Part shown: in pieces, positions 18,001-21,000 of the stretch
How the letters are laid out: the number at the start of each line of letters is the position of its first letter
How positions within the stretch are numbered: the stretch's first letter is position 1
Program-made: the position numbers
Assembly: GCF_013167455.1 (NCBI RefSeq)
Contig: NZ_CP038328.1
DNA: 64,000 nucleotides
Source of the DNA: Escherichia coli O157:H7
Lineage (GTDB): Bacteria > Pseudomonadota > Gammaproteobacteria > Enterobacterales > Enterobacteriaceae
Strand: one strand, 5' to 3'

Positions 18001-21000
18001 GTTGAAACCGACGGCGAAACCGTGTTTAGCTCGCGTGGCGCGTTAGCCACAGGAATGGAAAACTCCTTGCAGAGCGCGGTTCGTGACCAGGTTCACAGCA
18101 ATACGCGGGTACGATTTCCAATGGTGCGCAAAGGCTTTCTCGCGTCACCGGAAAACCCGCAAGGCATTCGTGGGCAGGATGAATTTGTTCGCGTGAGTTG
18201 GGATGAGGCGCTGGATCTTATTCACCAACAACATAAACGCATTCGTGAGGCTTATGGTCCGGCATCGATTTTTGCTGGTTCCTACGGCTGGCGTTCAAAC
18301 GGCGTGCTGCATAAGGCCTCGACATTATTACAACGCTATATGGCGCTGGCAGGCGGTTATACCGGGCATCTGGGGGATTATTCGACCGGCGCGGCACAGG
18401 CGATCATGCCGTATGTCGTGGGTGGTAGTGAAGTTTATCAACAGCAGACCAGTTGGCCGCTGGTGCTGGAACATAGCGATGTCGTGGTGCTGTGGAGTGC
18501 TAACCCACTCAATACGCTGAAAATTGCGTGGAATGCATCCGATGAGCAGGGGCTTTCTTACTTTTCTGCACTGCGTGACAGCGGGAAAAAGCTGATCTGC
18601 ATTGATCCAATGCGATCGGAAACCGTCGATTTCTTTGGCGATAAAATGGAGTGGGTGGCACCGCACATGGGCACTGATGTTGCGCTGATGCTGGGGATCG
18701 CCCATACGCTGGTGGAAAATGGTTGGCACGACGAAGCGTTTCTGGCGCGTTGCACCACCGGTTATGCCGTCTTCGCCTCTTATTTGCTGGGCGAGAGTGA
18801 CGGAATAGCGAAAACCGCCGAATGGGCAGCAGAGATTTGTGGTGTTAACGCAGAGAAAATCCGCGAGCTGGCGGCTATTTTCCACCAAAATACCACCATG
18901 CTGATGGCTGGCTGGGGAATGCAGCGCCAACAGTTTGGTGAGCAAAAACACTGGATGATCGTCACGCTGGCAGCAATGTTGGGGCAAATCGGCACACCCG
19001 GCGGCGGTTTTGGTCTTTCTTACCATTTTGCCAATGGTGGTAACCCCACGCGGCGCGCTGCGGTACTCTCTTCCATGCAGGGCAGCTTGCCGGGTGGCTG
19101 CGATGCGGTAGATAAAATCCCTGTCGCCCGCATTGTTGAAGCACTGGAAAACCCCGGTGGCGCATATCAACACAACGGTATGGACCGACATTTCCCGGAT
19201 ATTCGTTTTATCTGGTGGGCGGGCGGTGCCAACTTTACTCATCATCAGGATACCAATCGCCTGATCCGTGCCTGGCAAAAACCGGAGCTGGTGGTGATCT
19301 CTGAATGCTTCTGGACGGCGGCGGCAAAACACGCGGATATCGTTCTGCCTGCGACTACCTCTTTTGAGCGTAATGATCTCACCATGACCGGTGATTACAG
19401 TAATCAGCATCTGGTGCCGATGAAGCAAGTGGTGCCGCCACGCTATGAAGCGCGTAATGATTTTGATGTTTTTGCCGAGTTAAGTGAACGCTGGGAGAAG
19501 GGCGGTTATGCACGTTTTACGGAAGGAAAAAGTGAGCTGCAATGGCTGGAAACGTTTTATAACGTTGCCCGGCAGCGCGGGGCAAGCCAGCAGGTTGAAT
19601 TGCCGCCATTTACTGAGTTCTGGCAAGCCAACCAGTTAATTGAGATGCCGGAAAACCCGGACAGCGAGCGGTTTATTCGCTTCGCTGATTTTTGCCGCGA
19701 TCCGCAGGCGCATCCATTAAAAACCGCCAGCGGTAAGATTGAAATCTTCTCGCAGCGTATTGCCGATTACGCTTATCCGGATTGCCCGGGGCATCCAATG
19801 TGGCTGGTGCCGGACGAATGGCAGGGCAATGCCGAACCGGAACAGTTACAGGTACTTTCTGCTCATCCGGCGCATCGTCTGCACAGCCAGCTGAATTACA
19901 GTTCTCTGCGCGAATTGTACGCGGTGGCAAACCGTGAGCCTGTCACCATTCATCCTGACGATGCCCAGGCGCGCGGCATACAAGATGGCGATACTGTTCG
20001 GCTGTGGAACGCACGCGGGCAAATTCTTGCCGGAGCGGTCATTAGCGAGGGAATTAAACCTGGCGTGATTTGCATTCACGAAGGGGCATGGCCGGATCTG
20101 GATTTAACCGCTGACGGTATTTGTAAAAACGGCGCAGTGAACGTGCTGACCAAAGATCTCCCCAGCTCGCGGCTGGGGAATGGCTGTGCGGGTAATACGG
20201 CGCTGGCATGGCTAGAAAAATACAACGGTCCGGAACTGACACTTACAGCGTTTGAACCACCGGCCAGCTCATAATCCAGGTGGGTAGTTGGGTTTCATCC
20301 TGCCATGCGCAATCGACAATGTGAAAACCCTGCGCCTGGTAAAAATCTATCGCCGGTTGATTTTTTTGATAAACCTCCAGCATCAGATGGGGATAGCGCT
20401 GCTGCACATACTGCATCAGCGCCTTACCAATACCGCGTCTGACGGCCTTCGGTGCGACAAACATTGCTGCCAGAAATCGGCCTTCCATAATGCTGACAAA
20501 ACCGAGAAGCTTACCGTCTTCTTCCCAGACCCAGTTTTTCGCATTGGCAAGATACGCATCCCGCACCAGCGGAATGCACTCGCGCCAGTAATTCACTTTT
20601 ATAAAGGGATGCCCCCAGGTTGTACTTTCCAGCCACAGTTCGAGGATCGCGGGGAGTTCTGAACGTTGCGCTTCCCGAATCATGGTTTATTTCCCGGATA
20701 GCAACAGCAGCCAACCACATGATCATTCACCAGCCCACATGCCTGCATAAAGGAGTAACAGATTGTGGTACCGACAAACTTAAAACCACGTTTTTTCAGT
20801 GCCTTAGATAGGGCGTCGGAGGCGGGCGTAGATGTGGGGATTTCGCTCAACGTTGTGGCTTGTGTCACCTGTGGCTGATGATTTACAAACGACCAGACAA
20901 AGTCGGCAAACGGTTCGCCGTTCTGTTCCATTTGCAGGTACGCCCGCGCATTACCAATAATTGCCTGAATTTTCCCGCGATGGCGGATAATCCCGGCGTC

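What the first reader, a model, noticed from the sequence alone, without database searches (positions are those of the whole stretch)
20243..20274. Convergent 32-bp overlap of the bisC and yiaC 3' coding ends
bisC (plus strand) ends at 20274 and yiaC (minus strand) ends at 20243, so the last about 10 codons of each gene are encoded on opposite strands of the same DNA. Convergent coding overlap leaves no room for terminators and implies mutual transcriptional interference or antisense coupling.
Basis: seen in the sequence. Interest (0 to 1): 0.2.

Follow-up and report, generated by a model that had tools for sequence, protein, structure and literature searches.

The report
Conserved 32-bp bisC/yiaC tail overlap
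Two E. coli genes on opposite strands (bisC and yiaC) really do share their last 32 bases, but this is an already annotated, ordinary kind of gene overlap in which each transcript simply ends further on, inside the other gene.

Summary
bisC (17941-20274, +) and yiaC (20243-20683, -) share 32 bp. RefSeq annotates the same overlap in O157:H7 and K-12.

The overlap is not a frame or stop artefact:
- It is kept, without indels, in 33 species of 7 enterobacterial genera, at 32, 38 or 23 bp.
- It is the most conserved 32-nt stretch of the locus.
- Synonymous-site diversity drops in both frames.

The cost of the overlap looks small. BisC's conserved last strand lies opposite a predicted disordered YiaC tail. 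YiaC's last beta-strand lies opposite BisC's variable last residues.

"No room for terminators" is only half right. No intergenic or canonical intrinsic terminator exists, but the 3' ends sit inside the opposite gene. Published mapping puts the bisC 3' end about 158 nt past its stop, just after a conserved stem-loop inside yiaC. A Rho-dependent termination region lies about 252 nt past the yiaC stop, inside bisC.

The transcripts therefore overlap by at least about 190 nt, and the pair is already listed as an "excludon". Regulatory coupling is untested, and bisC is weakly expressed. Verdict: real, known, ordinary; low interest.

The parts
17941..20274 (+). bisC CDS (biotin sulfoxide reductase, 777 aa), stop TAA at 20272-20274
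   Evidence: ORF and translation. RefSeq annotation. Pfam Molybdopterin, Molydop_binding and Molybdopterin_N. The C-terminus aligns to within 2-4 residues of the C-termini of solved DMSO reductases (1EU1, 1DMR/4DMR) and the 7L5I TMAO reductase; two other TMAO reductases end 5-16 residues later.
20243..20683 (-). yiaC CDS (GNAT N-acetyltransferase, 146 aa), stop TAA = reverse complement of 20243-20245
   Evidence: ORF. RefSeq annotation. Pfam Acetyltransf_1/7/10. Homology to YjaB 2KCW. AF2 model with pLDDT 94.6.
20243..20274 (.). 32-bp convergent coding overlap, phase (123:132): bisC codon positions 1/2/3 face yiaC positions 1/3/2
   Evidence: Conserved in 33 species. Lowest nucleotide diversity of the locus.
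20243..20263 (.). Half A of the overlap. BisC's conserved C-terminal strand (L768)TAFEPP faces YiaC's predicted disordered tail P141-L146 plus stop. Variation here is BisC-synonymous and YiaC-nonsynonymous.
   Evidence: Per-site counts. YiaC residues 141-146 have low pLDDT (about 61) and no secondary structure. The YiaC stop drifts by +6 or -9 nt between genera. BisC 'LTAF(D/E)PP' aligns to 'VTVFDTP' at the end of DMSO reductase structures.
20264..20274 (.). Half B of the overlap. YiaC's last beta-strand end (M138-S139-W140; M138 and W140 invariant) faces BisC's variable last residues (A775)-S776-S777 plus stop. The bisC stop TAA/TGA is read as YiaC I137 (ATT/ATC)-M138.
   Evidence: invariant P134 T135 W136 I137 M138 W140. 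Strand E133-140 in the model.
20396..20422 (+). Stem-loop 2, inside the yiaC CDS, in the bisC 3' UTR: GCGCTG-c-TGCA / catac / TGCA-t-CAGCGC. No U tract follows.
   Evidence: Inverted repeat I1 and MFE fold. 92.4% of cells paired in 33 species, with 2 pairs showing compensatory changes. Published folded upstream sequence of the bisC 3' terminus, -22.2 kcal/mol.
20426..20436 (+). Mapped 3' terminus of bisC mRNA (K-12 3713899-3713909, peak 3713903, which maps to window about 20432); 3' UTR of 159 nt
   Evidence: TRS supplementary data, PMC10687069. Coordinates transferred through the K-12/O157 sequences.
20159..20179 (-). Stem-loop 1, inside the bisC CDS, 63-85 nt past the yiaC stop: TCCCCAGC / tcgcg / GCTGGGGA. 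On the - strand it is followed by AUCUUUGGU (weak U tract). Candidate 3' stabiliser or weak terminator of tag-yiaC mRNA; its role is not shown.
   Evidence: Terminator-like hit. Perfect 8-bp inverted repeat I3. 95.8% paired, with 2 compensatory pairs (CG to GC in 10 species, CG to UA in 2). Absent from BisC paralogues that lack yiaC. No 3' end was reported here in two data sets.
19991..19991 (-). Peak of a Rho-dependent termination region (K-12 3714344, +), antisense to bisC, about 252 nt past the yiaC stop. Resolution is coarse (800-nt windows).
   Evidence: Adams et al. 2021, Supplementary file 2: Rho score 7.30, p = 5.5e-14. C>G composition from +0 to +280 nt on this strand.
20680..21243 (-). 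tag CDS (3-methyladenine DNA glycosylase I). Its stop overlaps the yiaC start (ATGA, 20680-20683). tag-yiaC is the unit that converges on bisC.
   Evidence: Annotation and Pfam Adenine_glyco. tag lies directly upstream of yiaC in all 33 species, mostly with an ATGA junction.

Best explanation
This is a genuine, ancient and selectively tolerated tail-to-tail overlap of two unrelated genes, not a regulatory device in its own right.

The BisC C-terminus is ancestral. It matches the C-termini of DMSO/TMAO reductases and of BisC paralogues. The tag-yiaC pair abuts it so closely that the end of YiaC's last beta-strand is encoded opposite BisC's last three codons and stop. YiaC then runs on for six more, largely unconstrained codons opposite BisC's conserved last strand until a stop happens to occur. 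That stop drifts between genera, giving overlaps of 23, 32 or 38 bp.

Each protein's constrained segment faces the other's dispensable tail, so the overlap costs little and is stable.

There is no intergenic space, so neither unit has a canonical intrinsic terminator. Each RNA polymerase reads on into the antisense of the other gene. That RNA is untranslated and C-rich, and it is stopped mainly by Rho. This is shown for the tag-yiaC direction and inferred for bisC. The bisC mRNA ends, or is trimmed back to, about 10 nt past a stable stem-loop embedded in yiaC (shown). A similar conserved stem-loop embedded in bisC may serve tag-yiaC (inferred).

The two mRNAs are therefore complementary over at least 190 nt, and up to about 440 nt. 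Any interference between them is probably weak, because bisC expression is low and tag-yiaC coverage modest.
For: - Overlap, frames and annotation.
- Conservation of a 32/38/23-bp overlap without indels in 33 species.
- Dual-frame constraint: lowest diversity of the locus, with third-position diversity reduced in both frames.
- BisC end ancestral: it aligns to the ends of 1EU1, 1DMR and 7L5I. Paralogues end at 'KLTAFDEPAIVTL*'.
- YiaC: last strand 133-140, residues 141-146 low confidence. Invariant PTWIM.W followed by a variable tail. The E. coli tail PVVQTL differs from QADQTP elsewhere through BisC-synonymous changes plus D to E.
- No intrinsic terminator. Paralogues have canonical ones.
- Rho region antisense to bisC, 252 nt past the yiaC stop.
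- bisC 3' terminus 158 nt past its stop, behind stem-loop 2.
- General rule that Rho-dependent transcripts end just after U-less stem-loops: PMC6061677 abstract.
- In E. coli only 20% of genes in convergent overlaps have a rho-independent terminator, and (123:132) is the commonest phase: PMC2174442.
- 58-75 convergent overlapping pairs in E. coli.
Against: - Rho dependence of the bisC 3' end is not shown. No bicyclomycin-sensitive region was reported on that strand.
- The Rho region antisense to bisC could in principle stem from an unannotated antisense promoter rather than from tag-yiaC read-through.
- No 3' end was reported at stem-loop 1 in Term-seq or TRS data. Its covariation support is modest: 2 of 9 pairs, from related species. 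It shows no strand asymmetry in favour of the yiaC direction.
- The pair's listing as an excludon, and the conservation of two flanking hairpins, leave room for a regulatory role that I could not test.
Confidence: 0.8

Rival explanations
1. Functional excludon. The overlap and the read-through 3' UTRs were selected so that transcription of tag-yiaC represses bisC and vice versa. The mechanism would be RNA polymerase collision and/or RNase III cleavage of the mRNA duplex, giving mutually exclusive expression of the two units.
For: - The transcripts overlap by about 190-440 nt.
- yiaC-bisC is in the MG1655 'excludome', defined as present in at least 50% of 58 transcriptomes.
- The arrangement is conserved across 7 genera.
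- Conserved hairpins sit on both sides.
Against: - ExcludonFinder scores only transcript overlap. That is unavoidable when the CDSs overlap, so the listing is no evidence of regulation.
- bisC expression is low (about 0.05 read starts per nt) and tag-yiaC coverage is modest (90 reads per 800 nt). Collisions should therefore be rare; this step is inference.
- No functional link between the two units is known.
- Dual coding alone explains the sequence conservation of the overlap.
Confidence: 0.12
2. Collision-type bidirectional terminator (Ju et al. 2019; Wang et al. 2022). Converging polymerases are positioned by nascent stem-loops and terminate each other, independently of Rho and of U tracts.
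For: The pair is convergent and lacks an intrinsic terminator. Stable stem-loops flank the junction on each side. The model is described in bioRxiv 10.1101/2022.10.23.513370.
Against: - The tag-yiaC direction is bicyclomycin-sensitive, that is Rho-dependent. Those terminators are described as Rho-independent.
- In that study, collision termination works best for highly expressed pairs, because multi-polymerase collisions are needed. This pair is weakly expressed.
- The two 3' ends lie about 440 nt apart rather than at one shared element.
Confidence: 0.07
3. Annotation artefact: one of the two genes really ends earlier, because of a wrong frame or stop, so there is no coding overlap.
For: None found. 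Long overlaps in prokaryotic annotations are often mispredictions (PMC2478687, title and abstract).
Against: - Stops are fixed by frames that are conserved to the last residues in 33 species.
- The BisC tail aligns with the C-termini of solved homologues.
- YiaC invariant residues M138 and W140 lie inside the overlap and belong to a confidently predicted strand.
- Both frames depress synonymous variation.
Confidence: 0.01

Closest known systems
Convergent (tail-to-tail) overlapping gene pairs of prokaryotes (Lillo & Krakauer 2007, PMC2174442; Huvet & Stumpf 2014, PMC4161906)
   Same: Two CDSs on opposite strands share their 3' ends. The phase (123:132) is the commonest one for convergent overlaps of 5 nt or more. 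The pair is one of 58-75 such pairs in E. coli. As in most of them, there is no rho-independent terminator.
   Different: Nothing essential. The 32-bp length exceeds the modal 4 bp. The overlap is unusually stable across genera, because each protein's dispensable tail faces the other's constrained strand.
Excludons (overlapping transcription of neighbouring opposite-strand genes; ExcludonFinder, PMC12288877)
   Same: The transcripts of the two units overlap, and the pair is listed in the MG1655 excludome.
   Different: The defining consequence, reciprocal expression through interference or RNase III, has not been shown for this pair. Here the transcript overlap is forced by the CDS overlap.
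Rho-dependent 3' ends protected by U-less stem-loops (Dar & Sorek 2018, PMC6061677)
   Same: The bisC 3' end lies about 10 nt after a stable stem-loop with no U tract. The tag-yiaC direction shows a bicyclomycin-sensitive termination region, with C>G RNA downstream of a stable stem-loop.
   Different: Both stem-loops and the presumed rut regions are embedded in the coding sequence of the opposite gene. Rho dependence of the bisC end, and use of stem-loop 1, are not demonstrated.
Bidirectional collision terminators between convergent genes (Ju et al. 2019; Wang et al. 2022 preprint)
   Same: A convergent pair without canonical terminators, with stem-loops near the gene ends.
   Different: One direction is Rho-dependent. 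The 3' ends are far apart. Expression is low.

Membership tests
Convergent overlapping CDS pair | Two protein-coding genes on opposite strands whose 3' coding ends share nucleotides | tested here: met
   ORFs 17941-20274 (+) and 20243-20683 (-). Same in the RefSeq annotation of O157 and K-12.
Convergent overlapping CDS pair | Both reading frames are genuinely coding through the overlap (not a misprediction) | tested here: met
   Tails conserved in 33 species. Third-position diversity reduced in both frames. The BisC tail aligns to the ends of solved homologues. YiaC M138 and W140 are invariant and lie in a predicted strand.
Excludon | Transcripts of the two neighbouring opposite-strand units overlap | tested here: met
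   Literature data only. bisC 3' end 158 nt into yiaC. Rho region 252 nt into bisC. Listed in the ExcludonFinder Table 1.
Excludon | Reciprocal (mutually exclusive) expression caused by transcriptional interference or RNase III processing of the duplex | not testable with these tools
   No expression-perturbation or rnc data were available. bisC expression is low and tag-yiaC coverage modest.
Intrinsic (rho-independent) terminator | G+C-rich hairpin immediately followed by a U tract, downstream of the stop | tested here: not met
   Nothing of this kind lies after the bisC stop. The T7 run at about 20363-20369 has no strong hairpin and is not conserved. On the - strand there is only a weak candidate, stem-loop 1 followed by AUCUUUGGU. 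BisC paralogues do have canonical terminators.
Rho-dependent terminator with protective stem-loop | Read-through increases when Rho is inhibited (bicyclomycin) | tested here: inconclusive
   Met for the tag-yiaC direction in published data: Rho score 7.3, p = 5.5e-14. No entry for the bisC direction.
Rho-dependent terminator with protective stem-loop | Steady-state 3' end immediately downstream of a stable stem-loop lacking a U tract | tested here: inconclusive
   Met for bisC: terminus at window position about 20432, 10 nt after stem-loop 2. Not observed for tag-yiaC at stem-loop 1.
Rho-dependent terminator with protective stem-loop | C-rich, G-poor (rut-like) RNA downstream | tested here: inconclusive
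   C/G of 1.4-1.9 in 80-nt windows on both 3' extensions. This is generic for the antisense of coding DNA.
Collision-type bidirectional terminator | Rho-independent, shared termination element where converging polymerases stop each other | tested here: not met
   One direction is Rho-dependent. The two 3' ends are about 440 nt apart. Direct collision data are not available.

The most novel reading that the evidence does not exclude
The overlap and the two conserved, coding-embedded stem-loops (20159-20179 in bisC, 20396-20422 in yiaC) form one selected bidirectional 3'-end module. It sets the stability of both mRNAs. Through a 190-440-nt antisense duplex, it reciprocally couples expression of the sulfoxide-repair enzyme BisC to the tag-yiaC unit (alkylation repair plus lysine acyltransferase) across Enterobacteriaceae.
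Probability: 0.1. Interest if true: 0.4.

Novelty: already known. Interest (0 to 1): 0.12.

Why it matters
It matters little beyond this locus. The overlap is annotated in reference genomes, and the pair is already catalogued among overlapping transcription units. The general behaviour of convergent overlaps is also published: few intrinsic terminators, and the phase seen here as the preferred one.

Four points have practical or illustrative value:
- Anyone deleting or recoding bisC or yiaC must keep the shared 32 bp. An engineered delta-bisC strain in RefSeq does exactly that.
- A bisC deletion also removes the 3' UTR of tag-yiaC, and a yiaC deletion removes that of bisC. Phenotypes assigned to one gene may therefore involve the other.
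- The locus is a clean textbook illustration of how two proteins share DNA cheaply, by placing each one's floppy tail opposite the other's constrained strand.
- It also shows how 3'-end signals can be written into a neighbour's coding sequence.

Tried and rejected
**Computations that led nowhere**
- Intrinsic terminators. The consensus scan found 7 sites against 5.3 expected, and none lies after the bisC stop.
- Folds of 200 nt around the junction on either strand are no more stable than shuffles: z = -0.09 and -1.25.
- Rfam. There is no family in 19300-21500, only a chance hit at E = 0.55.
- Strand asymmetry of the two hairpins, to tell which RNA uses them. There is no useful signal.
- A YiaC homologue search, to find relatives outside the bisC context. 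It returned only close enterobacterial orthologues of 146/148 aa with the same tail. The pre-overlap state of YiaC could not be reconstructed.

**Literature look-ups that led nowhere**
- Adams et al. Term-seq tables list no 3' end in K-12 3713000-3714199.
- The supplements of SMRT-Cappable-seq and TERMITe do not mention either gene.
- Supplements of Dar & Sorek 2018, the 3'-UTR valves paper and ExcludonFinder are not held.
- Ju et al. 2019 (SEnd-seq) is not held.

**Readings rejected**
- Misannotated stop or frame: rejected on the comparative and structural evidence.
- The hairpin in bisC as a by-product of the protein motif: unlikely. Paralogues encoding the similar PTSRLANG motif lack it.
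Full report
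**Observation**

The window is E. coli O157:H7, 100% identical to NZ_AP018488. The ORF listing and the raw sequence show two genes:
- bisC at 17941-20274 (+), 777 aa, stop TAA at 20272-20274.
- yiaC at 20243-20683 (-), 146 aa, stop TAA as the reverse complement of 20243-20245.

They share 20243-20274, 32 bp. RefSeq annotates exactly these coordinates in O157. It annotates the same 32-bp overlap in K-12 MG1655: yiaC 3713652-3714092 (+), bisC 3714061-3716394 (-). The stretch is present in 5421 of 5426 complete E. coli genomes.

**Is it a real dual-coding stretch?**

I scanned one genome per species with the BisC C-terminal 249 aa. This returned 33 species of Escherichia, Citrobacter, Salmonella, Kosakonia, Trabulsiella, Cedecea and Shimwellia in which a yiaC orthologue converges on bisC.

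All of them overlap:
- 32 bp in most species.
- 38 bp in Kosakonia and Trabulsiella.
- 23 bp in Shimwellia and one Citrobacter amalonaticus genome.

In the 32 species that can be laid on common coordinates, there are no indels between bisC codon 529 and the yiaC start. Cedecea is set off by 9 nt. The tails are conserved: BisC ...LTAF(D/E)PPA(S/N)(S/P)* and YiaC ...PTWIMxW(QADQTP)*.

Nucleotide diversity across these species is lowest exactly in the overlap. The most conserved 32-nt windows of the 1.15 kb examined start at locus positions 3721-3726, inside the overlap.

Third-codon-position diversity falls in both frames:

| Frame | Outside overlap | Inside overlap | Mann-Whitney p |
|---|---|---|---|
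| bisC | 0.455 | 0.246 | about 0.001 |
| yiaC | 0.449 | 0.092 | about 1e-5 |

This is the signature of two frames under purifying selection.

**Anatomy of the overlap**

The phase is bisC codon positions 1/2/3 opposite yiaC positions 1/3/2. In the notation of Lillo & Krakauer this is (123:132), the most frequent phase (49%) among convergent overlaps of 5 nt or more.

The BisC end is ancestral:
- Its last residues align to within 2-4 residues of the C-termini of solved DMSO reductases (1EU1, 1DMR/4DMR) and the 7L5I TMAO reductase, for example 'VTVTVFDTPK'. Two other TMAO reductases end 5-16 residues later.
- BisC paralogues (about 61% identical, 814 aa) that have no yiaC neighbour end at about the same place, with 'KLTAFDEPAIVTL*'.

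For YiaC I predicted the structure from 28 orthologues:
- The AlphaFold2 model has a mean pLDDT of 94.6.
- It places the last strand at residues 133-140.
- It gives low confidence (about 61) and no secondary structure to residues 141-146.
- P134, T135, W136, I137, M138 and W140 are invariant. The tail after W140 varies and can be shorter or longer.

The overlap therefore has two halves:
- **20243-20263.** BisC's conserved strand TAFEPP lies opposite YiaC's floppy tail. The variable sites are BisC-synonymous and YiaC-nonsynonymous. The E. coli YiaC tail PVVQTL differs from QADQTP of other genera through BisC-synonymous changes plus D to E.
- **20264-20274.** The end of YiaC's strand (M138-S139-W140) lies opposite BisC's variable last residues and its stop. 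The stop TAA/TGA is read as I137 (ATT/ATC)-M138.

Each protein's constrained part faces the other's dispensable tail. This explains why the arrangement is cheap and stable. It also explains why only the yiaC stop drifts.

**Terminators and 3' ends**

The contrast with the paralogues is clear: they carry canonical hairpin+U terminators within about 20-60 nt of their stop. Neither a consensus scan nor folding finds one after the bisC stop. The E. coli T7 run inside yiaC has no strong hairpin and is not conserved.

Termination does not need an intergenic space, however. Published data place the ends inside the opposite genes.

*1. bisC direction.* The TRS study (PMC10687069) lists a 'distant primary' bisC 3' terminus:
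- It lies at K-12 3713899-3713909, with the peak at 3713903 and a 3' UTR of 159 nt.
- The folded upstream sequence is ...GGCGCUGCUGCACAUACUGCAUCAGCGCCUUACCAAUAC, at -22.2 kcal/mol.
- This maps to window position about 20432, 10 nt after an imperfect inverted repeat at 20396-20422 inside yiaC.
- That stem-loop is 92.4% paired in 33 species, with compensatory changes at two pairs.
- No U tract follows it.

*2. tag-yiaC direction.* Adams et al. (PMC7815308, Supplementary file 2) list a Rho termination region:
- It lies at K-12 3714344 (+), antisense to bisC.
- Read counts upstream/downstream are 90/23 without bicyclomycin and 60/112 with it. The Rho score is 7.30 and p = 5.5e-14.
- That is 252 nt past the yiaC stop, at window position about 19991 on the - strand.

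The RNA downstream of both stops has C>G composition, as expected for the antisense of coding DNA.

This picture matches two published generalisations:
- Rho-dependent transcripts end just after stable, U-less stem-loops (Dar & Sorek 2018, abstract).
- Only 20% of E. coli genes in convergent overlaps have a rho-independent terminator (Lillo & Krakauer 2007).

**A second hairpin**

A perfect 8-bp inverted repeat lies inside bisC at 20159-20179 (TCCCCAGC/GCTGGGGA). It sits 63-85 nt past the yiaC stop.
- It is 95.8% paired in 34 sequences.
- Compensatory changes occur at bisC-synonymous sites: CTC..GGG to CTG..GGC in 10 species, and AGC..CGG to AGT..CGA in 2.
- It is absent from the paralogues that lack yiaC.

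It is a plausible 3' stabiliser or weak terminator for tag-yiaC mRNA. Three things weaken that reading:
- No 3' end has been reported there.
- The covariation rests on related species.
- There is no strand asymmetry.

I list it as inferred.

**Coupling**

tag lies directly upstream of yiaC, mostly with an ATGA stop/start junction, in all 33 species. The unit converging on bisC is therefore tag-yiaC. The two mRNAs are complementary over at least 20243-20432 (190 nt), and up to about 440 nt if tag-yiaC transcripts reach the Rho region.

ExcludonFinder (PMC12288877) lists yiaC-bisC among 165 convergent excludons of MG1655. That call rests on transcript overlap alone, which is unavoidable here. 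No reciprocal expression, RNase III or collision data exist for this pair.

bisC is weakly expressed, at about 0.05 read starts per nt against 0.24-1.0 for its neighbours. tag-yiaC coverage is modest, at 90 reads in the 800-nt window. 'Antisense overlap' is therefore shown. 'Mutual interference or coupling' is possible but unproven, and I judge it unlikely to be strong.

The collision-terminator model fits poorly. One direction is Rho-dependent and the two 3' ends are far apart.

**Comparison with what is known, and verdict**

Convergent overlapping pairs number 58-75 in E. coli. In the 50 kb around this locus, 2 of 6 convergent pairs overlap. The phase, the lack of an intrinsic terminator and the Rho-dependent read-through are all typical of the class.

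Three details are added here:
- The depth of conservation.
- The interdigitated arrangement of constrained strand opposite floppy tail.
- The link between a published bisC 3' end and a conserved stem-loop written into yiaC.

The finding is real, already annotated and catalogued, and ordinary. Interest is low.

Noticed in passing
window 20159-20179 (inside bisC): Perfect 8-bp hairpin with compensatory changes at bisC-synonymous sites across genera. In E. coli it uses the rare Arg codon CGG. It is absent from BisC paralogues that lack a yiaC neighbour. It may be the 3' stabiliser of tag-yiaC mRNA, but no 3' end has been reported there.
   Followed up: partly
L035-L051 (Citrobacter, Trabulsiella, Entomohabitans); for example L035 1303-3747: A second BisC-like gene, about 61% identical and 814 aa, probably the TorZ/BisZ type. 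It has no yiaC neighbour. A canonical hairpin+U terminator follows within about 20-60 nt of its stop. It serves as a useful natural control for the bisC/yiaC junction.
   Followed up: partly
L057 3417-3500 (E. coli BE104, NZ_CP040643.1): bisC is replaced by a Datsenko-Wanner FRT scar (GTGTAGGCTGGAGCTGCTTC...GGAGGATATTCATATG). The last 40 nt of bisC are retained, so that yiaC stays intact. This is an engineered delta-bisC strain sitting in RefSeq. The deletion also removes hairpin 1 and the Rho region of the tag-yiaC 3' UTR.
   Followed up: yes
window 13863-13886 (O157 record 4565635-4565658): Another convergent coding overlap in the same window. A 23-aa hypothetical CDS overlaps the 3' end of hokA by 24 bp. 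The ysaE-hokA pair is also in the ExcludonFinder list.
   Followed up: no
window 20246-20263 (YiaC residues 141-146): The YiaC tail of E. coli and its closest relative in the set (PVVQTL) differs at 4 of 6 residues from the QADQTP tail of most other genera. The cause is BisC-synonymous changes plus BisC D772E. The tail evolves as a passenger of the BisC frame.
   Followed up: yes
window 44527-47146 and 25178-27751: In the identical O157 record, bcsA is annotated as a frameshifted pseudogene and lpfC as a pseudogene with an internal stop.
   Followed up: no
L034 (Citrobacter amalonaticus AUH_CA_2023_1): Both bisC and yiaC appear frameshifted or truncated in this 4.9-Mb single-contig assembly. 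This is probably sequencing error rather than biology. The locus was excluded from the comparisons.
   Followed up: no
window 17941: The bisC ORF, as listed here and as annotated by RefSeq, begins with TTG rather than ATG.
   Followed up: no
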